A stretch of DNA of 64,000 nt. Source: Patescibacteria group bacterium. GTDB taxonomy: Bacteria; Patescibacteriota; Minisyncoccia; Phycocordibacterales; PALSA-1337. The stretch spans positions 24,069 through 88,068 of the forward strand of contig JAZKBV010000004.1 of NCBI GenBank assembly GCA_040388415.1, read 5' to 3'. The notes below the pieces were generated by a model. The model worked only from the letters and a program-made list of their open reading frames with translations. It made no database searches and was not told the DNA's origin. Below are positions 26,771-64,000 of this stretch, piece after piece; the stretch's first letter is position 1, and each line of letters opens with the position of its first letter. Both the position numbers and the translations under genes were made by a program.

Positions 26771-26842
26771 GGCCCTATCGTCTAACGGTTAGGACACCGC
26801 CTTTTCAAGGCAGTAATCGGGGTTCGATTCCCCGTAGGGCTA
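26771..26842 (+). tRNA. tRNA-Glu (anticodon TTC)
   Basis: GGCCCTATCGTCTAACGGTTAGGACACCGCCTTTTCAAGGCAG...GGTTCGATTCC. Matches the bacterial tRNA-Glu consensus. Confidence 0.85.
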
Positions 26843-27069
26843 CACGAACAAAGTGAGTGGAGACCGTAAGCTCGTGCCTGCGCACGAGCGTCGGGGAATC
26901 GAAAAGGCTCTCCCATATTTTCGAGGAGCTTTGCTCTGAGAAAATGGGAAGCCTGCACTGCGCCTGTAAGGCGAGATTCCTAGCAAGCCGAGACCTGTGA
27001 CTGATTCTACAAATAAAAACCACGCGCAGTCAGAAGACATACGCGCGGGTGATTGAGTGGGTGAGTTAT

Positions 27070-27650: not shown

Positions 27651-28040
27651 CTAATCATTCCAACCCAAGAGATTTGCATACCCGCGTGATGAAAAATCAT
27701 TAAAGAGAGCGACCTTTGTTACTGGGCCATAATATCCTACTGCTGGCGTAACATTGAGTCTAGCCTGATAGTTAACAACTGCGTTCTTTGTCATTGATCC
27801 GTAGTAGCCCAATGGAATGCCTGCTGGTACATTGAGATATCCCATCTCAGACAAAAGCGCCTGAAGCGTGACAACACTAGCCCCCGCCATGCCGACAGTA
27901 AGATTCTCACTTACGGTGATATTCTGAGTTTCAGCATGAGCTTGTGGAGCAAGGATAATGGCACCCATAACAAACGCGAGTGCAAATGCACTGCCTACTA
28001 CTACGCGAGATGAAGTGACTAATTGTATGATTTTATTCAT
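27651..28040 (-). CDS. Secreted peptidoglycan-binding-domain protein
   Basis: Signal peptide. PG_binding_1-like repeat VVTLQALLSEMGYL...GYYGSMTKNAVVNYQARLNV...GYYGPVTKVAL. Confidence 0.55.
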   Translation of the reverse strand: MNKIIQLVTSSRVVVGSAFALAFVMGAIILAPQAHAETQNITVSENLTVGMAGASVVTLQALLSEMGYLNVPAGIPLGYYGSMTKNAVVNYQARLNVTPAVGYYGPVTKVALFNDFSSRGYANLLGWND

Positions 28041-28263
28041 ATATTTATTATTGTTAGATTTATTAAAGTGAACTTTCAGCTATGATGTCGGTGGTAACGT
28101 AATATGATTACAGTGTCATGTCGTGCGCACCCTATCTATAATCCAAATACTGTGATACACTGTTAATTGACAACTATCTATTTGTTTAGCACAATATATA
28201 TACCTGTAATAACCCTCTCACTTCTACGGCATCGTACTGTCTTCATCACGATACTATCTCTTT

Positions 28264-28776
28264 ATGAATACCAAAGAAAAAACAGCGATGAACCTCGTTC
28301 TCTCGGACGCGCATTTTGATTTTCAAAAAGGTTTAAACGCGCGGGCATTTTTCAAGATAAGCGACCATGAGATGGGCCAGGATCTTGTACAGGAAACATT
28401 TTTGAAAACATGGAAGCACCTCGTGAGCGGTGGCAAGATCCATATGATGAAAGCTTTTTTATATCATATTTTGAATCACCTTATCATTGATGAATATAGA
28501 AAGCGTAAAACGAGCTCCTTGGACGATCTATTGGAAAAAGGCTTTGAAGTTGGCACTGATGATACTGAACATCTTTTCAATACGCTTGATGGCAAGATCC
28601 TTATTCTTCTCATAAAAAGCTTGCCGGAAAAATATAAAGAAGTTATACATCTGCGATTCATCAAAGATTTATCGCTCAAAGAAATATCGCTTATAACAGG
28701 AAAAACAAAAAACAGTGTAGCTGTTCAGATACACCGTGGATTGATACAACTCAAGCTACTGTATAAGCATGCTTAG
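28264..28776 (+). CDS. ECF-type RNA polymerase sigma factor (sigma-70 family, regions 2 and 4)
   Basis: Region 2: QETFLKTWKHL. Region 4 HTH: LPEKYKEVIHLRFIKDLSLKEISLITGKTKNSVAVQIHRGLIQLK. No adjacent anti-sigma factor. Confidence 0.75.
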   Translation: MNTKEKTAMNLVLSDAHFDFQKGLNARAFFKISDHEMGQDLVQETFLKTWKHLVSGGKIHMMKAFLYHILNHLIIDEYRKRKTSSLDDLLEKGFEVGTDDTEHLFNTLDGKILILLIKSLPEKYKEVIHLRFIKDLSLKEISLITGKTKNSVAVQIHRGLIQLKLLYKHA

Positions 28777-28777
28777 A

Positions 28778-30910: not shown

Positions 30911-30983
30911 GCGCGGTTAGCTCAGTTGGTAGAGCGACCCCTTGACGTGGGGTAGGTCACAGGTTCGAATCCTGTATCGCGCA
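30911..30983 (+). tRNA. tRNA-Val (anticodon GAC)
   Basis: GCGCGGTTAGCTCAGTTGGTAGAGCGACCCCTTGACGTGGGGTAGGTCACAGGTTCGAATCCTGTATCGCGCA. Confidence 0.85.
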
Positions 30984-30993
30984 CACATTAAAT

Positions 30994-51569: not shown

Positions 51570-53555
51570 ATGAACCTGATAACCGTCATTCCGCTCACCC
51601 GTCAGAAAGTGGCTCCAACACTTTCGTATTTTACCTCGTCGGTTGTACCGGTTGGCGCTATCGTGACCGTCCCCCTCCGTTCAAAGACGATCAGTGCTAT
51701 CGTCTCAGACTCGCGTCCTGTGGCAGACGTCAAAGCAGACGTGAAAAGCGCGCCGTTCGAAATACGCAAGTTGGGCGCCGTCAAAGCCATCGCCTTCTTC
51801 CCTCCTTCATTCATCGAAGCATGTCGTTCGCTCGCCCTTCACTATGCCACTACTACAGGCAGCATCATCGACGCAATCATTCCTGACATCTTGATGGAAA
51901 ATGCACACAAGATCACTCCCCCCAACTCCGCACTCCCAACTTCTATCTCCAATGCGATACCTAACGAAGTCTACGTAGTCCAAGGCGACGATGCTGACCG
52001 CTTTAGCACGTGGCGCAGTCTGATCCGTCAGGAGTTCGCACGAAAAAAATCGGTTGTCTTTCATACGCCTACAATCGAAGATGCAAAGAACATGTTCAAA
52101 CTCCTCGAAAAAGGCATTGAGGGATATATTTTTATTCTTCATAACAAGCTCGCCAAAAAAGAAATCATCGAAACATGGGAGCTGATCGCAAAAACAGATC
52201 ATGCAGTGGCTATTATTACTGCCGGCATATTCCCCCTTCTTCCTCGCAACGATATCTCATCGGTCGTCATTGAGAGAGAAAACGGCCGTGGCTGGATATC
52301 ACCAAAGATGCCATACATGGACTTGCGCAAAGCGTTCGAGATCATCAACAAGCTCGCGCCCGGCAGAAATATATATCTTGCTGATAGTCTGCTCCGTAAC
52401 GAGACACTTCATCGTCTCGATCGTAACGAAATCTCACAGGGTTCACCATTCAAGTGGCGCTCCATCTCTACCGCCATTGATACACTCATCAATATGGTGC
52501 CGGAGAGGTCACAAGAGATAAGAGATAAGAGCTTGGAGGTAAGAAAAGACACAGAAACTATAGATGCTGACTCTAAGCTCCTAGCTCCTAGCTCCAATCT
52601 CTCTTTTCGTATCCTCTCTCCAGAGCTCGAGCGTTTGATCACCACAAATCGGGATGAGAATAGTCACCTCTTCATCTATGCGGTACGTAGAGGCCTCGCC
52701 ACCATGACAGTCTGTAGCGACTGTGAGACCATCGTAACGTGTGCCTCATGCTCATCACCGGTGGTCCTGCATGCATCAAAAGAAACGGGCAGAAACTTCT
52801 TCATGTGCCACGTCTGCGGTATTCGTCGCAGTGCCGATGAGGTCTGTCGCGTATGCGGAGGCTGGAGACTAACCGCGCTCGGCATCGGCCTCGATCGCGT
52901 CGAACAAGAGATCAAAGCAAAGTACCCGAACATCGACGTATACAAGATAGACGCCGATATCACCAAGACAGACAAACAGATCGCTGCAACGCTCGATAAG
53001 TTCCGTTCAAAACCGGGCAGTATATTACTTGGTACAGAAATCGCATCTTTGCACTTACATGAAACTGTTGATCATTGCGCTATCGTATCACTAGATTCAT
53101 TATTTGCTCTCCCTGACTTCCGCATACCGGAAAAGATAATGTATACGCTCATCCGCCTGCGCACGCTTGCCAGCCGTTCGATACTCGTACAGACGCGCCG
53201 TATAGAAGAAAAAGTATTCGAGTATGGCCTCAAAGGAAACTTGAGCGACTTTCATCGTGAGACTATCAGTGAGCGTCGCCGTTTTGGATATCCGCCATTT
53301 ATGACGCTCATCAAGATTAGTATTGAGGGTAAAAAGGATTCTATTGCAGAACAGATGGCTGACATTCAGAAAATCATTGAGCCTTATGAAATAGACATAT
53401 TTCCTGCATTCACTGGCGCTGCGCGAGGCAACTCCATCATCCACGGGCTCCTCAAATTACCACCTGAAATGTGGCCGAACATTGAGCTTGCCGAAAAGCT
53501 TCGCAATCTTCCTCAAAATGTCAGCGTGAAAGTCGATCCGGAGAGCTTGTTGTAG
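51570..53555 (+). CDS. priA: Primosomal protein N' (PriA)-like, helicase Walker A motif absent
   Basis: N-terminal 3'-DNA-binding-like region (VIPLTRQKV...VPVGAIVTVPL). A C-terminal Cys-rich zinc-binding region (CSDCETIVTCASCSSPVV...CHVCGIRRSADEVCRVCGG). A GSGKT/S P-loop was not found where expected (YVVQGDDADRFSTW). Confidence 0.7.
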   Translation: MNLITVIPLTRQKVAPTLSYFTSSVVPVGAIVTVPLRSKTISAIVSDSRPVADVKADVKSAPFEIRKLGAVKAIAFFPPSFIEACRSLALHYATTTGSIIDAIIPDILMENAHKITPPNSALPTSISNAIPNEVYVVQGDDADRFSTWRSLIRQEFARKKSVVFHTPTIEDAKNMFKLLEKGIEGYIFILHNKLAKKEIIETWELIAKTDHAVAIITAGIFPLLPRNDISSVVIERENGRGWISPKMPYMDLRKAFEIINKLAPGRNIYLADSLLRNETLHRLDRNEISQGSPFKWRSISTAIDTLINMVPERSQEIRDKSLEVRKDTETIDADSKLLAPSSNLSFRILSPELERLITTNRDENSHLFIYAVRRGLATMTVCSDCETIVTCASCSSPVVLHASKETGRNFFMCHVCGIRRSADEVCRVCGGWRLTALGIGLDRVEQEIKAKYPNIDVYKIDADITKTDKQIAATLDKFRSKPGSILLGTEIASLHLHETVDHCAIVSLDSLFALPDFRIPEKIMYTLIRLRTLASRSILVQTRRIEEKVFEYGLKGNLSDFHRETISERRRFGYPPFMTLIKISIEGKKDSIAEQMADIQKIIEPYEIDIFPAFTGAARGNSIIHGLLKLPPEMWPNIELAEKLRNLPQNVSVKVDPESLL

Positions 53556-53589
53556 TAACATTGCCAAAACTCCACAAAATAGGTATTAT

Positions 53590-54126
53590 TTGCCCATGCT
53601 CGAAATCGTCCAACAAAAGGACCCCGTCCTCAGAAAAAAGGCTAAACCCGTCCCTTCATCGATGATCGGAACACCTGAACTGACCAAAGTGCTCAATGAT
53701 ATGCGCAGAGCTATGGCAACCCAAAAAGATGGCGTGGCAATCGCTGCCCCACAAATCGGCGCATCACTGCAAATCTTCATGGTCTCTGGCGCAGTGTTGA
53801 GCAAAGCCGACCAAGACTATGCTGGCGATACCACTGATCTCGTCTTCATAAATCCTACCATCACCAAACTTTCAAAAGATAAAAAACTCGTTGAAGAAGG
53901 GTGCCTCTCAGTCCGTTGGCTCTACGGCACTATCAAGCGCTCTACCCGCGCATCGATCACTGCCCTCAATGAGAAAGGAGAAAAAGTAGAACGTGGTGCA
54001 TCTGGTTTGCTCGCACAAATATTCCAACATGAGACAGATCACCTCAAAGGAACACTGTTTATTGATGGCGCAGAAGAAGTATGGGAAATGAGCGAGGAAG
54101 AGATTGCGCAAGCTCAGGGAAAGTAA
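53590..54126 (+). CDS. def: Peptide deformylase
   Basis: GVAIAAPQIG (motif 1), EGCLSV (motif 2) and QHETDHL (motif 3). Confidence 0.9.
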   Translation: MPMLEIVQQKDPVLRKKAKPVPSSMIGTPELTKVLNDMRRAMATQKDGVAIAAPQIGASLQIFMVSGAVLSKADQDYAGDTTDLVFINPTITKLSKDKKLVEEGCLSVRWLYGTIKRSTRASITALNEKGEKVERGASGLLAQIFQHETDHLKGTLFIDGAEEVWEMSEEEIAQAQGK

Positions 54127-54167
54127 GAGGTAACACGAATCAACGAATGAACACACGAATACCACAA

Positions 54168-55079
54168 ATGTCCGACCTATCGCCTATTCCCTTTGTGTAT
54201 TTTGGTAGTTCACGCCTGTCAGTTATTGTCTTGGACGAGTTGCTCAGACTTGGCTATAAGCCTACACTGATTGTCACTACTACCGATAAGCCTCAAGGAA
54301 GAAAATTGATTGTCACGCCTAATGTCGTTAAGACATGGGCAGTCGAGCACAATATTCAAGTACTCAGTCCTGCAAAACTCGATAGTGAATTCATTGCGCC
54401 ATTGGTTATTGGAAATTGGTCATTATTTATTGTTGCCTCGTATGGAAAAATTATCCCCACGAGCATAATTGAATTACCTAAGTTCAAAACCCTAAATATT
54501 CACCCTTCTCTCTTACCACAGTATCGCGGTGCATCACCACTCCCTACTGCCATCCTTGAAGATACAAAGAAGACCGGTGTATCAATCATGCAACTCGATG
54601 CGGAGATGGATCATGGACCAGTTATCGTTCAGAAAGAAATCAATATTGCTGATCATTTCAAAGAGTGGCCAACATACGAAGATTTTGAAGAATTCATGGC
54701 TAAACAAGGTGCACTGCTATTGGCAGATGTTCTACCAGACTGGGTAGCAGGAAAAATTACCCCGCACGAACAAGATCATTCAAAAGCGACCTATACAAAA
54801 AAAATCACCAAAGAAGATGGTTTGATTGATTTTAACGTTGAAGAATTAAAAAATCTCACAAAGATTTCACCTGATCGCGCATATAGACTATTTCGCAAGA
54901 TTCAAGCTTTCCATGAGTGGCCTCAAGCATATTTCTTCATTGAAAAAGATGACGCAAAAATACGCATCAAAATAACCAATGCTTCATTTGAACATAATAA
55001 ATTAACCATCGATACAGTTATCCCAGAAGGAAAAAAAGAGATGAGCTATAACGACTTTATTCGAGGCTATATACAGTAA
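54168..55079 (+). CDS. fmt: Methionyl-tRNA formyltransferase
   Basis: Formyl-transferase N-terminal domain (FGSSRLSVIVLDELL...NIHPSLLPQYRGASP) plus a C-terminal domain. Synteny after def. Confidence 0.85.
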   Translation: MSDLSPIPFVYFGSSRLSVIVLDELLRLGYKPTLIVTTTDKPQGRKLIVTPNVVKTWAVEHNIQVLSPAKLDSEFIAPLVIGNWSLFIVASYGKIIPTSIIELPKFKTLNIHPSLLPQYRGASPLPTAILEDTKKTGVSIMQLDAEMDHGPVIVQKEINIADHFKEWPTYEDFEEFMAKQGALLLADVLPDWVAGKITPHEQDHSKATYTKKITKEDGLIDFNVEELKNLTKISPDRAYRLFRKIQAFHEWPQAYFFIEKDDAKIRIKITNASFEHNKLTIDTVIPEGKKEMSYNDFIRGYIQ

Positions 55080-55293
55080 AACTACCTGAAGCTTATTTCG
55101 CTTGAAGCTCCTGAGTGATTTGTGCGTTGCTAGTCGCGATAGTAGAGAGTTGATCTTTGATGTAATACACAACCACCCAAATGGTCCATGAAACCATGAG
55201 ACCAATGCACAACCATTGATTAATCGGTTGTCTTATCGAGAGGCTGAAAAAGTTTTGGTTGAGCATACGCTCTAGTATACTATATTTCCCTTT

Positions 55294-55659
55294 TTAAAAT
55301 GGCCATATACCTTTCATCATCGCCTTTACTTGAGCGCCACCGCGTCTCATGAATGAAAGTTGCTTGCCTTTGCTTGCTTTGACTTCACGTATGACTTCAT
55401 CGCGCATCGCATCGATAGCTGCGTAAAGGTCACTGTCTTCAGCACTGGCATAGAGATCCTTGCCTTTGCCTACGATATGTATTTCCGCACGGAAAATATC
55501 ACCATTTTTGTGATGGGCAGTTGTTTTTGCCAGTTCCACGTCGCATATAAAAGAAGGGTCGCCACCAATTATTTTTGTTATTTTAAGCAATCGCTTGTCA
55601 GCATATTCTGAGATTGCAGGAGTAAGAGTTATACCAGTTGTTTTTATTTTGATATTCAT
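55294..55659 (-). CDS. hpf: Ribosome hibernation promoting factor / RaiA family
   Basis: MNIKIKTTGITLTPAISEYADKRL...IHIVGKGKDLYASAEDSDLYAAIDA matches the sigma-54 modulation protein family. Confidence 0.8.
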   Translation of the reverse strand: MNIKIKTTGITLTPAISEYADKRLLKITKIIGGDPSFICDVELAKTTAHHKNGDIFRAEIHIVGKGKDLYASAEDSDLYAAIDAMRDEVIREVKASKGKQLSFMRRGGAQVKAMMKGIWPF

Positions 55660-55807
55660 GTTATTGAAAATATCTAGCGAGCTGATAATGGAGACTCTGC
55701 ACCTATTATAGCGCATGCAAGTGGAGACGAACAAGATTGCTTTTTATTACTGAGTCTATGCCTTTACTACTACGCGCAAAATAAAACTGGTGCACAAAAA
55801 GTGTGGT

Positions 55808-56032
55808 CTAATTATTTTTATCGCTGATTTCTATGAGCTTACTCGGCGAATGGTGTCCGTTCACGATTTTCACTGCCCTGTTCGGGTACATTGAACACAT
55901 GATCTCAAGGATTCGCTTGTTGGCGAGACCACGTTCTGGTGGTTGACGGAGATACATCTCTATATGATCATCCTCTATTTTCTGGATGACTTCTTTTGGG
56001 GCACCTGTTATGACTCGGACTTTGATATACAT
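55808..56032 (-). CDS. DUF167/YggU-family protein
   Basis: IKVRVITGAPKEVI...LRQPPERGLANKRILEIM matches the YggU pattern (APP..G.AN..L...L). Confidence 0.55.
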   Translation of the reverse strand: MYIKVRVITGAPKEVIQKIEDDHIEMYLRQPPERGLANKRILEIMCSMYPNRAVKIVNGHHSPSKLIEISDKNN

Positions 56033-56128
56033 ATTTTGATTTCGGATACGATATATGGTACATTTTCACATACCTCTTATTGGAGAGGATACCATATTAC
56101 TGGTACTTCGTTTGAAAAGTAAATACAT

Positions 56129-56201
56129 TCCTCGGTAGCTCAGCTGGTAGAGCAGCTCGCTGTTAACGAGTTGGTCGTAGGTTCGAATCCTACCCGAGGA
56201 G
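56129..56201 (+). tRNA. tRNA-Asn (anticodon GTT); its 3' end is overlapped by the recombinase gene (integration site)
   Basis: TCCTCGGTAGCTCAGCTGGTAGAGCAGCTCGCTGTTAACGAGTTGGTCGTAGGTTCGAATCCTACCCGAGGAG. Confidence 0.85.
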
Positions 56202-57743
56202 CATTGTAGGACGAGAGGGCACAAAAGTGCTCTCTTTTCTTTTTATGGAGCCATTATTTTCTGGTTCGAAAGTGTTATTAAGTAAAGGCACCCATTTAGC
56301 AAGAAATTCAAAGGCTAAAGTGTATTGTGGGGCTATAACATTAGCTTTCATTGAGATGTTCGAAAATATCTGACTTAAAAGCAATCTCTTTTGCTCAACA
56401 GTCGTCTTTGGACCCAAATATATATCTTTTGCCTTCATAGCTAGCTCATGAATTGAATACCCTGCTTCGTAATATCTCTGACGGTCCTCAGAAAGTTTTT
56501 TTAATGAATCCAACAGGACTTCATTTTCTCTTTTTGTATCTTCAAAGACCTTTGTGTACATCTCTCCAGTAATGGCACCATCCAGTTTATCCATATAAAC
56601 TTTCTCCATTCTGTTGTCATTACGCTTAATGAGCCTAGATATCTCTTCTTTCCTGAGACCATGTTCTTGAATCTCATCTGCATGACTTTCTTTTAATGCT
56701 TTTTCTAACCACGCAATAACCCTAGGATTTTTAGGGGCTATCTTGTCGAAATAAGCAAAAAGCTCTTTTTCAACCTCTTCCTGTCGAATCCATTTAGCCT
56801 TTGGACAGCCTTTATAATAATTACAGTGCCCATACCAATGCCCTTTTTGAGTCTCCCATGTAATCACACCTTTACATACCTCACAGTTAAGCTTCGCTTT
56901 GAATACTGGAGTGTGTTTTCTATATGAAGGAGACTGATTTTTACGGTTTAATTTATCTTGAACAAGATTAAATAATTCTTGTGAAATCAATGGCTCATGC
57001 TTTCCTTGATAAATCTCATTGTTCCACCTTATCTTTCCGTAGTAGAAAGGGTCACTCAAAAAATCATGCATTCTCGTCTTACCTACTCTGGTTCCAAAAT
57101 TATTTCTAAATCCCTCCTTATACAAAACATTACTCAGTTCTTGGACCGAATAGTTGCCAGTTGAATACAGGTCAAACATCCGCTTTATATACTGAGCCTT
57201 TTCAGGATTAATTACATGTATCTTATGACCCTTTTCTCCTTGTGATTTATAACCTAATGGTGCCCTAACAGGTGCCCAGCCTTGAGAAAGCTTCTCTTTC
57301 TGCCCTTTGCGGACCTCTTCAGACAAATTTGATATATACTTCTTAGCCAAAACTATTTCAATGTCCCATCTAAACCTTTCATCAGATTTTGCATTTCTGT
57401 GTATCACTAAATTTTGCTTCACAAAGTGAATCTTGCGATTTACATCAGCATCAATCCAATCGTTCGCCACGACTGCTTCCTTGAGGTTTCTAGTTAGTCG
57501 GTCAACCTTTTCGCACAACAGATTATTAACCCCATTCTTAGTCATGTAATCAATCATGTCTGAAAACACCTTTCTTTGCTTTGCACCACTTGCAGATTCA
57601 GCAACAGAAAAAGTTTTTACTACCTTCATATCCTTTCTTTGCGCATGTTCCTCTAGCAACTTCTCTTGTGCTGGCAAAGAATAGCCAGTTTCCTCCTGTT
57701 CTTTTGAACTCACTCGGGCATATATAACAGCTTTTTCTTTCAT
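56190..57743 (-). CDS. Large serine recombinase (serine integrase)
   Basis: N-terminal resolvase catalytic domain (AVIYARVSSKEQ, catalytic Ser). Recombinase domain. Zinc-ribbon and coiled-coil region (CEVCKGVITWETQKGHWYGHCNYYKGCP). 517 aa. Confidence 0.85.
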   Translation of the reverse strand: MKEKAVIYARVSSKEQEETGYSLPAQEKLLEEHAQRKDMKVVKTFSVAESASGAKQRKVFSDMIDYMTKNGVNNLLCEKVDRLTRNLKEAVVANDWIDADVNRKIHFVKQNLVIHRNAKSDERFRWDIEIVLAKKYISNLSEEVRKGQKEKLSQGWAPVRAPLGYKSQGEKGHKIHVINPEKAQYIKRMFDLYSTGNYSVQELSNVLYKEGFRNNFGTRVGKTRMHDFLSDPFYYGKIRWNNEIYQGKHEPLISQELFNLVQDKLNRKNQSPSYRKHTPVFKAKLNCEVCKGVITWETQKGHWYGHCNYYKGCPKAKWIRQEEVEKELFAYFDKIAPKNPRVIAWLEKALKESHADEIQEHGLRKEEISRLIKRNDNRMEKVYMDKLDGAITGEMYTKVFEDTKRENEVLLDSLKKLSEDRQRYYEAGYSIHELAMKAKDIYLGPKTTVEQKRLLLSQIFSNISMKANVIAPQYTLAFEFLAKWVPLLNNTFEPENNGSIKRKESTFVPSRPTMLLG

Positions 57744-58178
57744 GTATTATGTTAATTATACTGCTAAATTGTTTTTTTAAATACAACCAACTTTTACCTT
57801 TAATGAGAGGTAATTAGCTATATCTAATATGTTACCCAATACTGTAATCTAACGATGGTACTACCTTTTGAATAATATTCTTATGAAGCAAACTTATTCG
57901 ACATTAGCCCATCAAAGATTTGAGATACTTCGATACTTTTTAAACGGCTGGGCGAGAAGTTGTCACTCGTTTTCCCAGCATTCTCAAAAATACCTAAATA
58001 TCCCTTTATTGTTTGTTACATGCAACGCTTCAGTGGCATATAATTTTATAAGATTCCAAGTTGTTTTGGTGTAGTAGTTTAGTCTTATGACTACTCTGTA
58101 TTGTGGTTTTTAACAAACGGGTACATTTAATCAAATACCCTTATCTATCTCATTATCTAATGGGACACACAAGGAAAT

Positions 58179-58364
58179 TCAATTCTGTTGATGATTAATC
58201 AATGCAAGTAAATCAAAGTAGCCCGTAAGGTCACGAGCCAATTCAGATACTTTCTCTGGGACAAGCTGAATGCCATATTCCTCGAAAATTATCTGACCCA
58301 ATTCTTTGATTGTTTCTGCTTTTAAATTCATTATGATTTTCGTTTCTAACACTTTATATTTCAC
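58179..58364 (-). CDS. Hypothetical small protein (island cargo)
   Basis: 61-aa ORF with low GC. No domain recognised. Confidence 0.3.
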   Translation of the reverse strand: MKYKVLETKIIMNLKAETIKELGQIIFEEYGIQLVPEKVSELARDLTGYFDLLALINHQQN

Positions 58365-58425
58365 TAAACGTAATCTATATCAACTTTGCTATTTACTAAC
58401 CCTATAAGTGAAATTCAGTCCATTT

Positions 58426-58647
58426 TTATGCGTCCTCAGGGGTATTTGCGAGCTTCTCAAGACTATTAATTAAGCTGAACTTGTCTTTGTTATTAAATTC
58501 ATCTTTAGGAACGAGTAACTCGAATGCCTTATTAAGAGCTGAACGCTTAAAACTTTGACCTCGAACAGCTCTCATTAAAGCTGTGTAAGCAGATAGTCCG
58601 GAATCGGACTGCATAGTATTGACAAATCGTTTTTTGATACTTCTCAT
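58426..58647 (-). CDS. Hypothetical small protein (island cargo)
   Basis: 73-aa ORF. No domain recognised. Confidence 0.3.
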   Translation of the reverse strand: MRSIKKRFVNTMQSDSGLSAYTALMRAVRGQSFKRSALNKAFELLVPKDEFNNKDKFSLINSLEKLANTPEDA

Positions 58648-58811
58648 GTAATTTAATTTTGGTAAATAAAAAAAGCCCGTTTGGGGGCTGTGCTCCCATT
58701 ATAACATTTTTCAAACATTCATTATAGACCTCCTAGTAAATTTGTGTTATAAAAATGTGGCTCAAATAAGCCACTAAACTTATCCACATTAAAAATAGTT
58801 TGGAGGACCCA

Positions 58812-59489
58812 TTAATTAACTGCTTCAAGTACATATTTGTCGTTAATCGCATATGTGCCCTGAGAAATCTTAATTATTAACGGTTCAGTCATATTACAAC
58901 GCTTTTTTAATTGGGAATTAATTCTTTTACATTGCAGGTAGATATTACTTCTGTCCTCATATTTAGTAATTGCCTGAATTTCACTACCTAATAGTATTTC
59001 TTTACTTAAAAAAGCAGAAACAAGTAGAAAACTTTTTTTACTTTTACCTGAGGATTTAAGTCTATAGTATTCTTCTCGTTTACCCTGAACATATAATCCA
59101 TAATTCGATTCCAAACATATTTTTACTCTGTCTCCACCGTTTGTATCTATAAAATTTATCAGGTATGCCTTCAGTTTTTCCATATCAGCATCAAAATACA
59201 AATACAACACTCTGTTTTGAGTATCTTGAGAAGCTATTTGTTGTTTTTCCCCTCTTTTATAACTACTAACCTGTGTATTTGTTATCAAATTCTCCTTATT
59301 TAACATATCGATAAAATCGGTCCAACCAATAAAATTCTGAATAACGATTGATTCCGAAGGTGAAAATCCGCTTTTAAAATCCAATTTACTAATCTCTTTA
59401 AGTAAGAGATTGGCAATGTTTATAGCACTTAAACCGTATGTATCCCTGTGACTGGTCATGCAACCTAGATTAGCACAATGGAAAACCAT
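58812..59489 (-). CDS. Hypothetical protein (island cargo)
   Basis: 225-aa ORF. No domain recognised. Confidence 0.4.
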   Translation of the reverse strand: MVFHCANLGCMTSHRDTYGLSAINIANLLLKEISKLDFKSGFSPSESIVIQNFIGWTDFIDMLNKENLITNTQVSSYKRGEKQQIASQDTQNRVLYLYFDADMEKLKAYLINFIDTNGGDRVKICLESNYGLYVQGKREEYYRLKSSGKSKKSFLLVSAFLSKEILLGSEIQAITKYEDRSNIYLQCKRINSQLKKRCNMTEPLIIKISQGTYAINDKYVLEAVN

Positions 59490-59495
59490 TAAAAA

Positions 59496-59891
59496 CTAGT
59501 TACTCAGACAAGCTGAGTATGCCTGTTGATACTGAGCTTGATAGTAAACATTTTTTGCATTATCTGTATTCTTATTTAATTCTGACATGAGCCCATTAGC
59601 GCAAGCTAAACTACCAGCCTCGCACACTATCTTTGCTTGTTCAACAATCTTCTGTACCTCAGCATTTGCAATCGTTGGAGTGGCTAACTGTAATTGCTGT
59701 TTAGCGAGAATATCTGAAGATATTTTACACTTCTCAATCTTTATCTGCGGGCCATTGTTTACTTTAGGGACAGTGGTTATTGGCATTGGTACTGCCTGTT
59801 TGATATTTACAATGATGAGCGTTGAAACTAACAATAAAAGCACTGCGACAATACTCAACTTAAACCAATTTTCTTTTAAAAAACTATTCAT
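59496..59891 (-). CDS. Hypothetical membrane-anchored protein (island cargo)
   Basis: N-terminal TM helix (LSIVAVLLLLVSTLIIV). Cys-containing extracytoplasmic domain. Start chosen at MNSFLKE to abut the upstream gene. It could instead be 59933. Confidence 0.4.
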   Translation of the reverse strand: MNSFLKENWFKLSIVAVLLLLVSTLIIVNIKQAVPMPITTVPKVNNGPQIKIEKCKISSDILAKQQLQLATPTIANAEVQKIVEQAKIVCEAGSLACANGLMSELNKNTDNAKNVYYQAQYQQAYSACLSN

Positions 59892-59892
59892 A

Positions 59893-60651
59893 TCATTTAA
59901 ATCCACAAAGATGGGACCGGAGTTTCGTTTCAAGTTCTTCCTTATTTAACTGCACCGAATCAATGGTTTTTTGCAACAATGCTTTTTGTGCCTGAAGTGA
60001 CTTAAATTCTTCTTGTTTGTTAGTAGTGGTTGATTGAGGTGAATCTTGTTGTATAAGAACATATATTTCTTTTTGCAACGACTGAAGCCCTTGTTGCTTC
60101 ACCGTTAGTATCGATTTTATGTCATCAAACTGACTTGCATATGTTAAACAAAGATTGGTGTCTGCAACTGGCACTACTATTGCAAAAGGTTCTCCACCAC
60201 ACTTTGAGGCGTAATTCCCATATTTTTCTTTTAATGAGAGCAGGATAGCCTTATACAAAGGTTGTGCCTCATACGAGAGTTGTTTAGGTATGTAACCTGT
60301 CTTTAATAAATAAAGTGTACGGGCATAAAATTTATTGACGGTAGAAACATCACCCCAATTCTCGGTCCCACTTGTTAGTGGCACATCCTTTTCTAACTCA
60401 GAACACATCACTTGTAACTTTAATGAGTTATTGTTAATTTCAACCTCATTTATTCGATTACTTAATGTAACCTGTTCAGTCTCAATTGAAGATACCTTAC
60501 CAAAAATAGTGTTTATCTGAGAAACTATCGAAGACATCGCTTCAGTAGGCGTTTTGCCACCGAGAACAGAAATTGCAAACGTACCTGCAAATGTAATTAC
60601 AGGGAAAGCAATAATGACTCCGAGTACTATAAAAATTATGTGTTTTCTCAT
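59893..60651 (-). CDS. Hypothetical secreted/membrane-anchored protein with a coiled-coil C-terminus (island cargo)
   Basis: Start taken at MRKHIIFIVLGVIIAFPVITFAG (60651). The upstream region carries GTTACTGG repeats and a CACGTG hairpin. Confidence 0.45.
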   Translation of the reverse strand: MRKHIIFIVLGVIIAFPVITFAGTFAISVLGGKTPTEAMSSIVSQINTIFGKVSSIETEQVTLSNRINEVEINNNSLKLQVMCSELEKDVPLTSGTENWGDVSTVNKFYARTLYLLKTGYIPKQLSYEAQPLYKAILLSLKEKYGNYASKCGGEPFAIVVPVADTNLCLTYASQFDDIKSILTVKQQGLQSLQKEIYVLIQQDSPQSTTTNKQEEFKSLQAQKALLQKTIDSVQLNKEELETKLRSHLCGFK

Positions 60652-60948
60652 TTTGTTACTGGTTTTAGGTAGCATAAAGCCCACCACGTGGGCGACGGCT
60701 TGCGCCATCCATACCAGTTTCCCGATATGACCAGTAACGATAGCCCCACATGATGGGTTTTCTACTCGTTACTGGTTTTTTCACCATGTCAGTATTTCTA
60801 CTGATTTAGGCTACTCGTATAAAATATTGAATTGTGTTCCCATTAAACCATAAAATACTCTCGTTTAAAAGTGACATTGGGGCATTTGTTGATAAGTTTA
60901 ATATCAATCTAGTGTATAATATTGATATCAGTTTTTGATATTTGAACA

Positions 60949-61548
60949 ATGCTCTCAATCAATAAAAATCAGCACACTAGCGATTTAAAGATTAGACATA
61001 ATCTAATTAAATACATTGGGAAACAGTACAATAATCACCCAGCAAAAATAATCGAGGAATTTTCTGTTTGTGACGGGGCTGCACGAGTAGATTTAGCGGC
61101 AGTGAATGGAATAATGCACGGATTTGAAATTAAAAGTGATATTGATTCATTAAATAGACTTCCGCACCAAATTGAACTCTACGGCTCAGTATTTGATAGG
61201 GTTACCTTGGTTGTGGGGGCAACTCATTTGTATGAGGCTTTTAATATGATTCCAGAATGGTGGGGTGTCTTAGTGGCTAGAATAAATAAAAATGGGACAG
61301 TTTCTTTTAACGAAATCAGAAGCCCAAAAAAGAACAGGAACGTAAAAATTCATTCTGTTGTAAAACTCTTGTGGAAGGAGGAGGCAATCAGTGTTCTTGA
61401 AGGAATAGGTTTTGCTCGTGGGTATAAGTCGAAAAATAGAGAACAAATCTGCAGAAAAATTACCGAGGAACTTGATTTAAAAACAATTTCTACGAAAGTT
61501 AGGGAATCAATTTTATTTAACCGACAAGGTTGGAAAGTTGGTGTATAA
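60949..61548 (+). CDS. Candidate PD-(D/E)xK-fold nuclease-like protein (possibly sce7726-like family)
   Basis: VCDGAARVDLAAVNGIMHGFEIKSDID fits a D...D/E-x-K catalytic pattern. An extended -10 promoter (TGTATAAT, 60913-60920) is flanked by the inverted repeat TAATATCAAT/ATTGATATCA (60899-60930). The 3' end overlaps the convergent 387-aa gene by 32 nt. Confidence 0.5.
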   Translation: MLSINKNQHTSDLKIRHNLIKYIGKQYNNHPAKIIEEFSVCDGAARVDLAAVNGIMHGFEIKSDIDSLNRLPHQIELYGSVFDRVTLVVGATHLYEAFNMIPEWWGVLVARINKNGTVSFNEIRSPKKNRNVKIHSVVKLLWKEEAISVLEGIGFARGYKSKNREQICRKITEELDLKTISTKVRESILFNRQGWKVGV

Positions 61549-62680
61549 CCACTGCAGTGTGGTGACTGATTCCATATGCAATCCAGTCCCATGTACGCCC
61601 CGTGCCCTTTACACTATTATCTTTTGCATAAACTTTAAAGTGTTCAGCTTTTTCACATATCTTTTTATCTCCCCAACTAAATTTTTCTCCCATACCGTAA
61701 GTCGCACTTTTAAATTCTGGCTGAAGAACAAGCAAAGAGGCGTTCGTCAGATACAGATGCAACGCTCTTTTTTTACCTTTCATAATCATCCATTGTGGTC
61801 CGAGAGTGTATTTGAGTGTCGACGTTGATTCAATAAATTGCAACGAATCATTGTACATGGGATGTCGAATACTGTAATCACTGTAGGTTGGGATTCGATT
61901 AACACCGTTTTTTAATACATTACTTTCCCAGCTGGTCCAATCTGTTCTTGGTAGATATGTAGATTCATCGATTGGACACTCTGACATATCGACTGGAAAT
62001 GCCCCACTCGCAAAGATAAATTCCTTAAATTGCTTCAAACCAGTTATTTTCTGTGCTTTATCAAATAATAGCCCGTACGTTTCAGGTGAGTGGTCTAAGT
62101 ACTTTAAATCAATCAATAAATGGGTGTCCTCCTTTGACACCTTAAGTACATTTACGAGTAAATCAGATATTTTTTTGTCTAAAATATCTATATCCCTCAA
62201 ATTTGATGGGGTTACCCTTAAACACACCTCATTGATTAATTTTTTAGAAATTAATTGACCAATGTTATTTACGATTGAATGTTCATCTGCAACATTAAAT
62301 ACCGGCACTATTTCAATCCCTTTTATCCTTCCTTCTTCAACTAGCTTGTTCAATGTTTCTATTTTTAACTCACTAGTTTTATGTCTATCATGAAGCAACG
62401 TAACATCAACATAAATTTTATCTACACCCCAAAATTCCTTAATTTCCTCTGGTATTTCACCTAATCGACTTGAAAGCATCTTTTCAACCATTTCTGCATG
62501 AATTTCATCATCAGTTTTTTTTATCGTCCTTTCTTTATCTTTATGTGTATTAACGCTTGGAAGCACTAGTTCAATCAGAGGTACGACATGTTTCTTGTCT
62601 ATAGAAGAGATGTTGCTGAGAGCTGCCATTTCTCCAGCTTTCCATTTTAATATGGGTACGTATTTAATGTTTTTGGTCAT
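61517..62680 (-). CDS. Hypothetical 387-aa protein, co-transcribed with the HTH-ImmA gene (possibly sce7725/beta-protein-like; candidate effector)
   Basis: The ORF starts 4 nt after the upstream gene's stop. No motif recognised by eye. Confidence 0.5.
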   Translation of the reverse strand: MTKNIKYVPILKWKAGEMAALSNISSIDKKHVVPLIELVLPSVNTHKDKERTIKKTDDEIHAEMVEKMLSSRLGEIPEEIKEFWGVDKIYVDVTLLHDRHKTSELKIETLNKLVEEGRIKGIEIVPVFNVADEHSIVNNIGQLISKKLINEVCLRVTPSNLRDIDILDKKISDLLVNVLKVSKEDTHLLIDLKYLDHSPETYGLLFDKAQKITGLKQFKEFIFASGAFPVDMSECPIDESTYLPRTDWTSWESNVLKNGVNRIPTYSDYSIRHPMYNDSLQFIESTSTLKYTLGPQWMIMKGKKRALHLYLTNASLLVLQPEFKSATYGMGEKFSWGDKKICEKAEHFKVYAKDNSVKGTGRTWDWIAYGISHHTAVVIHQLSNLVG

Positions 62681-62684
62681 AAAT

Positions 62685-63887
62685 TTATTTAATCCACATC
62701 ACTTCAGGAAAATAATCCCGTACCGCTGATTCAGTAATTATTTTTGTTAATTTGTTCCAACTATTCATTTCGTATCTAATTTTTCCGGCAACAATAGCCA
62801 TATGTACACCAATTTCACTAGCCAAAGCACTAGCGGCTAGTTTGGAAGGTATAAGTTTTGCCGCACTGACTTCCCACTTATCTGAAGGAACCAGAGCTTC
62901 ACTAGCCAATGTATCTGCCTCTTTTTCAATTTTACTAATTTCTACACCAGATACATTTTCTAATTCATCGTAGAAAATATGATTTTCATGTTCACTGTGA
63001 AGTGCAATGTGTGCAAGTTCATGCATTAGCGTAAACCAAAAACTATCAAGACGGTCAAATCTTAAGGTTAAAGCAATAATCGGGTTGTTTTTATCTACGA
63101 AAATTGCCGCTCCATCAAGACGTGTACCTTTAAAATGAGGCTCAATAACTAATATAATCCCATTTTCCAAAAGAAAATTTTGAATCTTTTTTGGGGCATT
63201 TTCTAAAATACTCATTTGCGCCACTTTACGCATAAATTGCAAATTAACAGTGCCCTTTTTATATAAGCAATTAATTTTAGCCGCTTCCGCACGCTTAAGC
63301 ACACATCCAAACCAAGCCGCTAAAGCATTCTTATCCGTTAATGGTGATGTTCTGTAGTTAGACTGACGAAGTAATCCTGCAAATTGAACTTCTTGATTTC
63401 TGAACTGGAACAGTTTACTTAAATCCACACCATTGATACGTGTAGTAATTTCTGATACCAACTTTGTGCTCCAATTTAAAATATTTTTAGTATCACGACT
63501 TTCTGTTTCTTGAATCAATACCTTAAAAGGAATATCAAGCCCGCTTTCAAGTGCTCGAATCATTTTTATGGTTAAAGGTCTCTTACCCGATAAAATCTCT
63601 GACGCTTTACTGCGACTACCGATATAAGGTTCGAGGTCAACAGGCTTCAAATTTTGTTGTTCCATTCTGAAACGTATAGCCTCAATAGGACTTGGAAGAC
63701 TGGAAGAAAAGTTGTTTCTTTCGTAATCCTCAATAAGAGTAGCGAGCAGTTGAAGTTGGTCCGCCTCTTTAGAGCCAGATTTGGGGTTAACAATCATCAG
63801 CTCTTCAAGTGCTGACAGAGCTTCTTCGTGGTCTTTTTGAGTTTTTATTACTTTAATATTTATCATGGTTTTTATTTGATATTCCAC
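62685..63887 (-). CDS. XRE-family HTH domain fused to an ImmA/IrrE-family zinc metallopeptidase
   Basis: HTH region: IEAIRFRMEQQNLKPVDLEPYIGSRSKASEILSGKRPLTIKMIRAL. C-terminal HEXXH: FTLMHELAHIALHSEH. Confidence 0.75.
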   Translation of the reverse strand: MEYQIKTMINIKVIKTQKDHEEALSALEELMIVNPKSGSKEADQLQLLATLIEDYERNNFSSSLPSPIEAIRFRMEQQNLKPVDLEPYIGSRSKASEILSGKRPLTIKMIRALESGLDIPFKVLIQETESRDTKNILNWSTKLVSEITTRINGVDLSKLFQFRNQEVQFAGLLRQSNYRTSPLTDKNALAAWFGCVLKRAEAAKINCLYKKGTVNLQFMRKVAQMSILENAPKKIQNFLLENGIILVIEPHFKGTRLDGAAIFVDKNNPIIALTLRFDRLDSFWFTLMHELAHIALHSEHENHIFYDELENVSGVEISKIEKEADTLASEALVPSDKWEVSAAKLIPSKLAASALASEIGVHMAIVAGKIRYEMNSWNKLTKIITESAVRDYFPEVMWIK

Positions 63888-64000
63888 TTTTCGTACTCCT
63901 CATGTGTTCCTACCGCTTTAATATTTACTATCTGATGTTCATAGCTAATTTGTACCCATATCCTATACTTATTGCCACATATATTGAAAACCGTATTTAA

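What the first reader, a model, noticed from the sequence alone, without database searches (positions are those of the whole stretch)
56129..64000. Low-GC integrative element inserted at the tRNA-Asn 3' end, led by a large serine recombinase
The recombinase ORF (56190-57743, minus) overlaps the last 12 nt of tRNA-Asn. From that point GC falls from about 43% to about 30-35% and stays low to the window end. All cargo genes are hypothetical small, secreted or membrane proteins, ending in a three-gene regulator and nuclease-like module. This is the clearest accessory region in the window.
Basis: partly seen in the sequence, partly recalled or inferred. Interest (0 to 1): 0.7.

Follow-up and report, generated by a model that had tools for sequence, protein, structure and literature searches.

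The report
Split-recombinase mobile island at tRNA-Asn
An 8.3-kb mobile island carrying an anti-phage toxin-antitoxin cassette sits at the end of the tRNA-Asn gene of a Patescibacteria bacterium, and because its serine recombinase gene contains its own attachment site, insertion leaves the enzyme's last 33 codons at the island's far end.

Summary
A 517-aa large serine recombinase (LSR1, 56190-57743, minus) ends inside tRNA-Asn, and GC falls from 45.3% to 35.7%.

A near-identical strain (99.94% in the flank) has the same tRNA followed directly by genes that lie 18 genes further on in the window's genome, so this is an insertion.

The element (E1) is 8,292 bp, from 56203 to 494 nt past the window end. 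Its ends share only a 4-bp core (GAGC), not a tRNA repeat. attP lies inside the 3' end of the LSR gene, so integration leaves the last 33 codons at the far end. The same layout recurs in dozens of related loci.

E1 is the tRNA-proximal unit of a two-element array. Its outer flank is the 3' end of a second, 26%-identical LSR.

Cargo is a complete PD-lambda-2 type cassette (HigB, HTH-ImmA, Beta) plus a conserved convergent cII/sce7726 gene, a LOOT RNA, two membrane proteins and a conserved small protein.

Each ingredient has a precedent. The combination, widespread in Patescibacteria, appears undescribed. Recombination activity and excision were not demonstrated.

The parts
56129..56202 (+). tRNA-Asn(GTT), the integration target. 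It stays intact after insertion.
   Evidence: ARAGORN. Rfam tRNA 71.5 bits. Identical in the element-free strain L082.
56199..56202 (.). attL core GAGC. The inferred crossover dinucleotide GA is at 56199-56200 (tRNA positions 71-72). G56201, the discriminator, and everything to its right come from the element.
   Evidence: This is the only sequence shared by the two ends, GCTC on the LSR strand. The core is conserved in 38 attL and about 22 attR sites of the family. The reconstructed attP is a dyad around TC, with 10 of 13 inner positions symmetric. The Logan contig ends fall exactly 30 nt outside the element-specific DNA.
56190..57743 (-). Large serine recombinase LSR1 in its integrated, tail-less form (517 aa). 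The last four codons and the stop are read from the tRNA.
   Evidence: Pfam PF00239 and PF07508. PHROG 95 integrase 9e-69. S12 and four Cys (287, 290, 307, 313) are invariant in 25 homologues. PDB matches to the A118 and TP901-1 integrases. NCBI MES2314944.1.
57744..58178 (.). 435-nt stretch upstream of LSR1 without a convincing ORF. Presumed promoter or regulatory region.
   Evidence: ORF list. Several relatives carry a roughly 77-aa ORF here, read as ribbon-helix-helix-like from its sequence motif only, with no family search; the window does not carry it. No Rfam match.
58179..58364 (-). p61, a small protein (probably 50 aa from M12) that is a conserved core gene of the element family. Candidate directionality factor or regulator (inferred).
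   Evidence: tblastn hits upstream of the LSR on the same strand in 39 of 80 family loci. No Pfam, PHROG or PADLOC match. Not annotated by NCBI.
58426..58647 (-). p73, hypothetical protein.
   Evidence: ORF. MES2314945.1. Homologue only in L086/L122.
58812..59459 (-). p215, hypothetical protein with the lowest GC in the element (30.7%).
   Evidence: Gene call on L001. GC. No family match.
59496..59891 (-). p131, protein with one N-terminal transmembrane segment.
   Evidence: Gene call. Hydropathy scan.
59893..60708 (-). p271, protein with one N-terminal transmembrane segment, directly downstream of the LOOT RNA.
60694..60812 (-). LOOT RNA (Rfam RF03000), an orphan structured RNA that recurs in this element family.
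   Evidence: 87.5 bits against a gathering score of 46.4, E = 4.5e-16. Also found in 11 of 14 other family loci scanned.
60949..61548 (+). sce7726 / phage P4 cII-like protein, convergent with and overlapping the Beta gene.
   Evidence: NCBIfam NF033832 9.4e-50. PADLOC cll 3.3e-29. Pfam Phage_P4_cII. Same position and orientation in almost all of 80 cassette loci.
61517..62680 (-). Beta protein, the PD-lambda-2 component C.
   Evidence: Pfam PF14350 1.8e-43. PADLOC PD-Lambda-2_C 9e-36.
62685..63866 (-). HigA-like HTH fused to an ImmA/IrrE metallopeptidase, the PD-lambda-2 component B.
   Evidence: PADLOC PD-Lambda-2_B 4.3e-126. Pfam Peptidase_M78. MES2314951.1.
63872..64000 (-). C-terminal part of HigB-like toxin, PD-lambda-2 component A. 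The gene runs to 64159, outside the window. Beyond it lie the higB upstream region (64160-64396), the displaced LSR1 tail (64397-64497) and the attR core GAGC (64495-64498).
   Evidence: L001 is 100% identical to the window over 7,828 nt and adds 524 nt. PADLOC PD-Lambda-2_A 1.8e-34. Tail and attR.

Best explanation
The region is E1, an 8.3-kb integrative element. It spans window 56203 to 64494 in extended coordinates and is bounded by GAGC cores at 56199-56202 and 64495-64498.

Integration (inferred from sequence). E1's own large serine recombinase inserted it at the 3' end of tRNA-Asn. The attachment site attP lies inside the last part of the recombinase gene. In the free form the gene would encode about 550 aa, ending ...PSRPTM-LAWQDAFRTYDWISAFPDPEMTMRQVRQLISLL. 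Recombination at a GA/TC dinucleotide, at tRNA positions 71-72, joins the gene body to the tRNA. The integrated gene therefore ends ...PSRPTMLLG-stop, using a stop codon read from the T-stem. The last 33 codons end up at the other end of the element. The element supplies the discriminator G and the trailer, so the tRNA gene stays intact.

Array (shown by comparison). The target was already occupied. E1's outer flank is the 3' end of a second recombinase gene, LSR2, only 26% identical to LSR1. LSR2 belongs to an older element, E2, of roughly 9 kb. E2 ends with its own displaced tail next to the ancestral flank. The locus therefore reads tRNA-Asn | E1 | E2 | host.

Cargo.
- A PD-lambda-2 type abortive-infection toxin-antitoxin cassette: HigB, HigA-ImmA and Beta.
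- A conserved convergent cII/sce7726 gene.
- A LOOT RNA.
- Two membrane proteins.
- A conserved small protein, p61, that may act as excision factor or regulator.

Shown here: the insertion polymorphism, the boundaries, the att architecture and the family-wide pattern. Inferred only: catalysis by LSR1, activity of the truncated form, any role of p61, the defence function, and how the element moves between cells.
For: (1) Empty site.
- L082 (GCA_040384245.1) equals window 52928-56205 at 99.94% and then diverges completely.
- Its downstream genes carry accessions MES2314962-970 on the window's own 132-kb contig. DUF167 is MES2314943 and LSR1 is MES2314944, so 18 genes are inserted.

(2) Right end.
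- Logan contig L001 is 100% identical to the window and extends it by 524 nt.
- It carries a stretch encoding LAWQDAFRTYDW...LISLL* on the LSR strand.

(3) Family pattern, from 80 loci of LSR1 relatives.
- In 48 loci the LSR stop lies within a convergent tRNA 3' end: 34 Asn, plus Gln, Asp, Ser, Ile, Arg, Tyr and Val.
- In about 20 loci a homologous tail lies upstream of the LSR on the same strand, typically 6-11 kb away. It is preceded mostly by stop-rich, non-conserved flank ending in GC|TC.
- In other loci the tail is contiguous with the LSR ORF.
- The tRNA-Asp lineage uses core GC at both of its ends.

(4) att architecture is that of a large serine recombinase.
- The reconstructed attP is a dyad around TC, 10 of 13 positions, chance about 1e-4.
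- The outer motif of the P arm (TTCCGTACCTATGAC) recurs in the tRNA arm (TTCGAACCTACGAC) 5 bp closer to the centre. The same shift is reported for A118 integrase (PMC3783163).

(5) Array.
- The 30 nt outside E1's right core are identical to the 3' end of a 553-aa LSR that reads into tRNA-Asn in another species, L166.
- L166 also shows that LSR type with its native contiguous tail, LHVVNDIITYFQ.
- The same tail type sits at the distal junction with the L082-type flank in the window's strain, L164.
- Three annotated genes lie between higB and the 400-aa E2 gene.

(6) Polymorphism.
- Both ends of L001 lie exactly 30 nt (k-1) outside the E1-specific DNA. This is what a de Bruijn fork with an E1-free allele in SRR26324621 would give (k = 31 is recalled from memory).

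(7) Horizontal movement.
- E2 DNA is 92.6% identical between two hosts whose neighbouring housekeeping genes are only 63-68% identical.

(8) Composition and cargo.
- GC 35.7% against 45.3%.
Against: - No excised circle or free attP of E1 was seen. No family contig is circular, and the contigs with a contiguous tail look like array junctions rather than free elements.
- Recombinase activity was not tested. Whether the tail-less 517-aa form can excise is unknown, and no directionality factor was identified.
- Inserting next to a resident element means LSR1 used a site whose outer half is another recombinase's P' arm. Characterised serine integrases recombine only attP with attB (PMC3783163), so this requires tolerance for the B' half.
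- The E1-free allele in the same sample is inferred from contig ends only.
- LSR2 of the window's strain was not retrieved. Its fusion to E1's tail rests on 30 nt of sequence plus gene numbering.
- E1 encodes no transfer, replication or packaging genes that I could recognise.
Confidence: 0.85

Rival explanations
1. E1 and E2 are not two elements but one composite island of about 17 kb. It moves as a unit between the tRNA junction and the distal tail, and the internal tail is a fossil.
For: The only fully empty allele seen (L082) lacks both units. attL of E1 and the distal attR could in principle recombine. No excised form of E1 alone was observed.
Against: The ends of L001 fit a fork at E1's own two cores. 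L164 runs through the distal junction without a break. E2-type elements with LSR2 sit directly at tRNA-Asn in other genomes, L166 and L167. E1-type elements of 6-11 kb bounded by a type-1 tail occur elsewhere. Each unit has the tail type that goes with its own recombinase clade.
Confidence: 0.12
2. The region is a decayed temperate phage or a phage satellite, not an autonomous integrative element. The recombinase is a leftover prophage integrase.
For: The LSR matches the PHROG integrase family, and Beta, cII and HTH-ImmA match PHROG families. Beta and cII are known from satellite phage P4 (PMC9122126, listed; the P4 gop-beta-cII locus is described in 10.1101/2023.04.06.535777).
Against: No capsid, terminase, tail, lysis or replication gene was recognised in E1. 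There are no close relatives in the viral contig collection. Family members are uniformly small (6-13 kb) and share the same minimal core of LSR, p61 and LOOT.
Confidence: 0.08
3. The low-GC segment is ancestral, and the recombinase is a domesticated or unrelated site-specific recombinase that merely abuts the tRNA.
For: Adjacent host genes (fmt, hpf) also have somewhat reduced GC, about 0.39-0.42.
Against: A near-identical strain lacks the segment. The att architecture is present at both ends. The same junction structure occurs at tRNAs of many unrelated hosts.
Confidence: 0.02

Closest known systems
Phage-type large serine integrases (A118/LI, Bxb1, phiC31, TP901-1)
   Same: Resolvase catalytic domain, recombinase domain and a Cys4 zinc ribbon. 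Short att sites with a 2-bp crossover. A pseudo-palindromic attP. The outer motif shifted 5 bp between attP and attB.
   Different: The target is the 3' end of a tRNA gene rather than a protein-coding gene. attP lies inside the recombinase's own coding sequence. The outer (B') half of the target appears free to vary, which allows insertion next to a resident element. There is an extra conserved C-terminal region of about 70 aa plus the detachable tail.
Streptococcal IME_Spy2096_SNF2, a serine integrase whose recombination site lies within the integrase gene (PMC5357655)
   Same: A serine integrase with attP inside its own gene.
   Different: It targets the snf2 gene of conjugative elements, not a tRNA. 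No tail-bearing arrays, LOOT RNA or Patescibacteria hosts are described.
Myxophage Mx8 IntP and SSV1-type archaeal integrases (recalled from memory; the paper on archaeal tyrosine recombinases, PMC8371274, appeared but was not read)
   Same: attP lies inside the integrase gene. Integration into a tRNA gene changes or splits the integrase's C-terminal end.
   Different: These are tyrosine recombinases with long identity segments that duplicate part of the tRNA. Here the enzyme is a serine recombinase and only 4 bp are shared.
phiRSM filamentous-phage small serine recombinase at tRNA-Ser (Askora et al. 2011; seen here only as reference 22 of PMC7192596; its tRNA-Ser target is recalled from memory)
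   Same: A serine recombinase integrating at the 3' end of a tRNA gene.
   Different: It is a small resolvase-like enzyme with a longer shared core, not a large serine recombinase. attP is not inside the gene.
PD-lambda-2 anti-phage system of E. coli (PMC9519451)
   Same: HigB-like A, HTH-peptidase B and Beta-like C in the same order on one strand. All three match the PADLOC profiles.
   Different: The cII/sce7726 gene convergent with C was present in nearly every locus long enough to show it, among the 80 best loci examined. It is not part of the PADLOC three-gene definition and links the cassette to P4 gop-beta-cII. No gop was found.
Tycheposons and tRNA-targeting genomic islands (10.1101/2020.12.28.424599; Islander, PMC4383910)
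   Same: Small cargo-carrying islands that stack at tRNA genes. A minority of tycheposons and cryptic elements (27 of 937) carry a large serine recombinase.
   Different: Most use tyrosine integrases and leave a displaced tRNA fragment as a direct repeat. E1 leaves none.

Membership tests
Large serine recombinase (serine integrase) | N-terminal resolvase-type catalytic domain with the nucleophilic serine | tested here: met
   PF00239 1.9e-18 at residues 5-155. The R10-V11-S12-S13 motif is invariant or nearly invariant in 25 homologues. TP901-1 catalytic domain match.
Large serine recombinase (serine integrase) | Recombinase domain followed by a zinc ribbon with a coiled-coil insert | tested here: inconclusive
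   PF07508 5e-15. A118 integrase C-terminal domain match at residues 177-290. C287, C290, C307 and C313 are invariant. PF13408 is recorded for some homologues, but the window protein did not reach Pfam's threshold. The coiled coil was not tested.
Large serine recombinase (serine integrase) | Short att sites, a 2-bp crossover, a dyad attP, and an outer motif 5 bp closer to the centre in attB | tested here: met
   4-bp shared core. attP dyad with 10 of 13 positions symmetric. P-arm and tRNA-arm alignment with a 5-nt offset. Criterion taken from PMC3783163.
Large serine recombinase (serine integrase) | Catalyses attP x attB recombination, with excision needing a directionality factor | not testable with these tools
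p61 is only a positional candidate.
Classical tRNA-targeting genomic island (Islander type) | Tyrosine integrase | tested here: not met
   No tyrosine recombinase in E1. The only recombinase is of the serine type.
Classical tRNA-targeting genomic island (Islander type) | Displaced tRNA 3' fragment as a direct repeat at the distal end | tested here: not met
   No repeat longer than 13 nt with mismatches between the two ends. Only GAGC is shared.
PD-lambda-2 defence system | Three co-oriented genes: HigB-like A, HTH-peptidase B, Beta-like C | tested here: met
   PADLOC A 1.8e-34, B 4.3e-126 and C 9e-36. Order and strand.
PD-lambda-2 defence system | Abortive-infection protection against phage | not testable with these tools
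   Shown only for the E. coli system (PMC9519451).
P4 gop-beta-cII system | gop, beta and cII genes together | tested here: not met
   cII matched at 3.3e-29. The P4-type beta profile matched only at 1.5e-4. No gop match.
LOOT RNA (Rfam RF03000) | Covariance-model score above the curated gathering score | tested here: met
   87.5 bits against 46.4, with the full model length matched.
Prophage | Virion, packaging or lysis genes | tested here: not met
   No such PHROG or Pfam hits among the nine proteins scanned.

The most novel reading that the evidence does not exclude
Placing attP inside the recombinase gene may be a built-in directionality switch. Only the excised or incoming form would make the full-length, tail-bearing enzyme that integrates. 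The integrated copy would make a tail-less enzyme with different activity or partner requirements. In arrays a resident recombinase acquires the newcomer's tail, which re-creates a functional attP-like site and could let neighbouring elements control each other's mobility. If this holds for both recombinase clades, Patescibacteria would host a large, self-regulating family of tRNA-targeting serine-integrase elements marked by the LOOT RNA.
Probability: 0.25. Interest if true: 0.8.

Novelty: new variant of a known kind. Interest (0 to 1): 0.6.

Why it matters
- It shows, with base-pair boundaries, that Patescibacteria exchange defence genes on small serine-integrase elements that stack at a tRNA gene. 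These bacteria have tiny genomes and few recognised mobile elements.
- It contradicts the rule of thumb that tRNA-gene islands are the work of tyrosine integrases.
- It shows a serine integrase whose attachment site is part of its own coding sequence, so that integration edits the enzyme.
- It gives an orphan RNA motif (LOOT) its first clear genomic home.
- It yields dozens of natural recombinase and att-site pairs with a conserved, universally present target, a tRNA 3' end. These could be tried as integration tools, including in Patescibacteria themselves.

Tried and rejected
Searches that returned nothing useful:
- A direct or inverted repeat of the tRNA 3' segment at the far end. Nothing beyond chance.
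- An exact 30-mer of the right flank in JGI metagenomes. 0 hits.
- LSR1 relatives in viral contigs. None.
- A protein search with the 42-aa tail fragment. No candidate. The likely reason is that the tail is either unannotated or hidden inside a 90% cluster.
- A protein search with the L166 LSR2, to fish out the window strain's LSR2. It returned only a cluster representative at 97% identity with 17 members. None of the 120 hits listed showed the 132,070-bp contig as its longest.
- The source genome was not in the GTDB representative collection. Its 132-kb contig was never returned by the look-ups.

Ideas corrected along the way:
- I first read loci with only the 3' half of tRNA-Asn next to the LSR as free attP sites. 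They are tRNA-Asn genes interrupted by a group I intron (PMC13011429).
- I first took contigs with a contiguous LSR tail for free circular elements. None is circular. Those with long flanks carry a second LSR on the same strand, and one, L153, reaches a tRNA-Asn, so they are array junctions.
- I first took the L082 flank for a different island, because it did not match the 524-nt extension. Protein accession numbering showed it is the ancestral flank beyond a second element.


Full report
**Observation.** The window carries tRNA-Asn(GTT) at 56129-56202 (Rfam 56129-56201, 71.5 bits). A 517-aa ORF lies at 56190-57743 on the minus strand, and its last three sense codons and stop lie inside the tRNA. 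The protein has the Resolvase and Recombinase domains. It matches the PHROG integrase family at 9e-69, has distant NCBIfam similarity to XisF and CcrA/B, and matches the solved A118 and TP901-1 serine integrases. In an alignment of 25 homologues the catalytic-serine motif and four cysteines are invariant. GC is 45.3% to the left of the tRNA end and 35.7% to the right. No host window of the same size falls below 43.4%.

**Getting past the window end.** An exact look-up of the HTH-ImmA protein found a public Logan contig (L001, SRR26324621, 8,352 bp). It is 100% identical to the window over 7,828 nt and adds 524 nt beyond position 64000. It completes higB. It ends with a short open stretch, on the recombinase strand, encoding ...PSLAHSSLGLAWQDAFRTYDWISAFPDPEMTMRQVRQLISLL*. 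There is no copy of the tRNA 3' segment there.

**Is it an insertion?** The 74-aa DUF167 protein next to the tRNA is also encoded on NCBI contig JAWVHA010013490.1 (L082). That contig equals window 52928-56205 at 99.94% and then has no similarity at all. Exact look-ups gave accession numbers on the window's own source, a 132,070-bp contig of a 'Patescibacteria group bacterium' MAG.

- DUF167 is MES2314943 and the recombinase is MES2314944.
- p73 is 945, cII 949, HTH-ImmA 951 and HigB 952.
- The genes that follow the tRNA directly in L082 are 962-970.

The window's strain therefore has 18 genes between the tRNA and the flank that is adjacent to it in L082. L082 is an empty site.

**The recombinase family and its junctions.** LSR1 has 2,599 relatives at E <= 1e-20, largely from Patescibacteria. 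I fetched 80 loci from metagenomes.

- In 48 loci the recombinase's stop lies inside the 3' end of a convergent tRNA gene: 34 Asn, 6 Gln, 2 Asp, 2 Ser, and one each of Ile, Arg, Tyr and Val.
- In four more loci (L085, L104, L120, L156) only the 3' half of tRNA-Asn is seen. For L120, Rfam shows that the tRNA is interrupted by a group I intron. This feature was recently described for Patescibacteria (PMC13011429).
- In the remaining informative loci the ORF continues for 25-40 codons.
- A tblastn search with the window's 33-aa tail found homologous tails (LAWRDAFRTYDW...). They lie on the same strand upstream of the recombinase, typically 6-11 kb away, in about 20 of the tRNA-joined loci. Most are preceded by non-conserved, stop-rich DNA that ends in GC|TC.
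- The attL sites share the mirror pattern ...tcct.t.ttGC|TC|CG.gggtaGGatTCGAACC.
- The tRNA-Asp lineage has GC instead of TC at both of its ends. This independently marks the crossover position.

The conclusion is that attP lies inside the 3' end of the recombinase gene, and integration leaves the body at attL and the tail at attR.

**The att sites.** Joining the window's two ends gives attP ...CGTCCTACAATGC-TC-GCTTGGCAGGACG.... It is symmetric at 10 of 13 inner positions around TC, with a chance probability of about 1e-4. It restores an ORF ending ...PSRPTMLAWQDAFRTYDW..., which parallels natural contiguous forms such as L136...SSPGWLAWRDSLRTFKW. The P arm and the tRNA arm share an inner GG.AGGA motif. 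They also share an outer motif, TTCCGTACCTATGAC against TTCGAACCTACGAC, that sits 5 bp closer to the centre in the tRNA. That is the attP/attB difference established for A118 integrase (PMC3783163).

In tRNA terms the crossover GA is positions 71-72. The element supplies G73 and the trailer, so the gene stays whole. The conserved FRT residues of the tail are encoded by TTYCGNAC, which mimics the T-loop.

**Boundaries and polymorphism.** E1-specific DNA runs from 56203 to 64494 (8,292 bp) between GAGC cores at 56199-56202 and 64495-64498. L001 begins exactly 30 nt before this DNA and ends exactly 30 nt after it. Its terminal 30-mers end and start with GCTC. Logan assemblies use k = 31 (recalled from memory), so this is what a graph fork with an allele lacking E1 would produce. 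A circular junction would instead have cut the contig at the core. I treat the E1-free allele in that sample as inferred, not shown.

**The array.** The 30 nt outside E1's right core (CCATCTCTGGCTCATTCGTCACTAGGGCTC) are identical to the 3' end of a 553-aa recombinase in another species. That enzyme (L166, GCA_040384205.1) is 26% identical to LSR1, ends ...NEPSLAHSSLGLRRQDSNL..., and reads into that species' tRNA-Asn. L166 also holds a remnant of the same enzyme type with its native contiguous tail...SSLGLHVVNDIITYFQNT....

In the window's strain, a second Logan contig from the same sample (L164) reaches the L082-type flank. Its junction reads ...GTCAAGTAATGCTC|CACGTTGTAAACGAAATT..., which encodes the same tail type, LHVVNEIITYFQTT.... 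Three annotated genes (MES2314953-955) lie between higB and the 400-aa gene of this second unit. By collinearity with L166 they are LSR2, a 297-aa gene (read as a winged-helix protein from its sequence only, with no family search) and a 73-aa gene.

The locus is therefore tRNA-Asn | E1 | E2 (about 9 kb by collinearity) | host flank. E1 inserted between the tRNA and the resident LSR2, which now carries E1's tail. Similar mixed arrays occur in L153, L147 and L087. E2 DNA is 92.6% identical between the two hosts, while their def, fmt and priA regions are 63-68% identical. That indicates transfer between species. I could not retrieve the window strain's LSR2 itself.

**Cargo.**

- The right-hand module is HigB (PADLOC PD-Lambda-2_A, 1.8e-34), a HigA-like HTH fused to an ImmA/IrrE peptidase (PD-Lambda-2_B, 4.3e-126) and a Beta protein (PD-Lambda-2_C, 9e-36; PF14350).
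- A convergent, overlapping sce7726/P4-cII gene follows (NF033832, 9.4e-50; PADLOC cll, 3.3e-29).
- In E. coli, PD-lambda-2 is an abortive-infection system. There B is toxic, A neutralises it, and C is needed for defence (PMC9519451).
- In the 80 best loci holding the B protein, A-B-C plus convergent cII are in the same order wherever the contig is long enough. cII is thus a regular fourth gene. A bare HigB-ImmA pair also exists, on an Acinetobacter plasmid.
- The same cassette sits at the tail-proximal end of another element of this family, L069, which is 12.9 kb and joined to an intron-bearing tRNA-Asn.
- The rest of E1 holds two proteins with one N-terminal transmembrane segment each, and three proteins without any match.
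- One of the three, p61, lies just upstream of the recombinase in 39 of 80 family loci. It is the obvious candidate for a directionality factor or regulator. That is inference only.
- A LOOT RNA (RF03000, 87.5 bits) lies at 60694-60812. It recurs in 11 of 14 other family loci scanned, usually followed by a small membrane-protein gene.

**Comparison with what is known.** Large serine integrases normally target protein-coding genes, and tRNA-gene islands are typically attributed to tyrosine integrases (PMC4383910 abstract). Precedents exist for each ingredient.

- A streptococcal mobilisable element has its recombination site within its serine integrase gene (PMC5357655).
- The small serine recombinase of phiRSM integrates at tRNA-Ser (seen here only as a reference in PMC7192596; target recalled from memory).
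- Mx8 and SSV1-type tyrosine integrases have attP inside the gene and tRNA targets (from memory).
- A minority of tycheposons and cryptic elements carry large serine recombinases.

Full-text searches found no description of this Patescibacteria family, of tail exchange in arrays, or of a mobile-element context for LOOT. The library is incomplete, so I rate the finding a new variant of a known kind.

**Limits.** No activity, excision product or transfer route was shown. Using an occupied site as target departs from the strict attP x attB pairing of studied serine integrases. The E1-free allele and the LSR2-tail fusion in this strain are inferred.

Noticed in passing
window 60694-60812 (-); also L085 2110-2237, L097 3901-4017, L089 6707-6832, L098 7215-7330, L106 1598-1727, L105 5567-5684, L093 957-1079, L137 7130-7250, L133 2647-2771, L091 8327-8444: The orphan LOOT RNA motif (RF03000) lies inside 12 of the 15 elements of this recombinase family that were scanned. 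It occurs in either orientation and is usually followed by a gene for a small membrane protein. It looks like a hallmark of these elements.
   Followed up: partly
L120 2894-3177 (-); similar junctions in L085, L104, L156, L069 and L147: tRNA-Asn genes next to the recombinase are interrupted by a group I intron in the anticodon loop, and ARAGORN misses them. The recombinase still sits at the 3' exon (PMC13011429).
   Followed up: yes
L164 1-7450 (beyond the window, same strain): The second element (E2) carries an Mrr_cat/NA-iREase1 nuclease-like protein, a NERD protein, a tRNA_bind protein and a high-GC purD gene (GC 0.55-0.57). The purD gene is unexpected cargo for a Patescibacteria mobile element.
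   Followed up: no
L069 428-13296: A 12.9-kb element of the same family carries the same PD-lambda-2 plus cII cassette, inverted relative to the recombinase. The MAG is labelled Gammaproteobacteria, but the intron-bearing tRNA-Asn suggests a mis-binned Patescibacteria contig.
   Followed up: partly
window 57744-58178; L106 5846-6079, L108 496-729, L116 565-798, L123 3906-4136, L133 9682-9918, L137 9709-9945: Several relatives have a roughly 77-aa ORF between p61 and the recombinase (MSTN..KKLY..TVQVRISEKWH..), read as ribbon-helix-helix-like from its sequence motif only, with no family search. The window has a 435-nt ORF-free gap there instead.
   Followed up: partly
L166 4573-4673, 5949-6896 and 12660-14321: The related genome L166 also holds an array: an intact LSR2 at tRNA-Asn, a 315-aa remnant LSR with a contiguous native tail, and a further lone tail.
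   Followed up: partly
L165 (Acinetobacter plasmid NZ_CP032281.1) 2707-4194: HigB plus the HTH-ImmA fusion occurs there as a two-gene pair without Beta or cII, so the cassette exists in two-gene and four-gene forms.
   Followed up: no
L082 3400-5650 (L163 3276-5500): The ancestral flank just after tRNA-Asn is itself low in GC (0.36-0.39 for about 2.2 kb) and full of small ORFs. It begins with ATTnnnnGAC, like the recombinase-side arm of E1. It might be an older decayed insertion.
   Followed up: no
window 28000-29000: There is a short GC dip (0.36-0.38) around the 170-aa ORF at 28264-28776, which lies between tRNA-Glu (26771-26843) and tRNA-Val (30911-30984). No recombinase is nearby.
   Followed up: no
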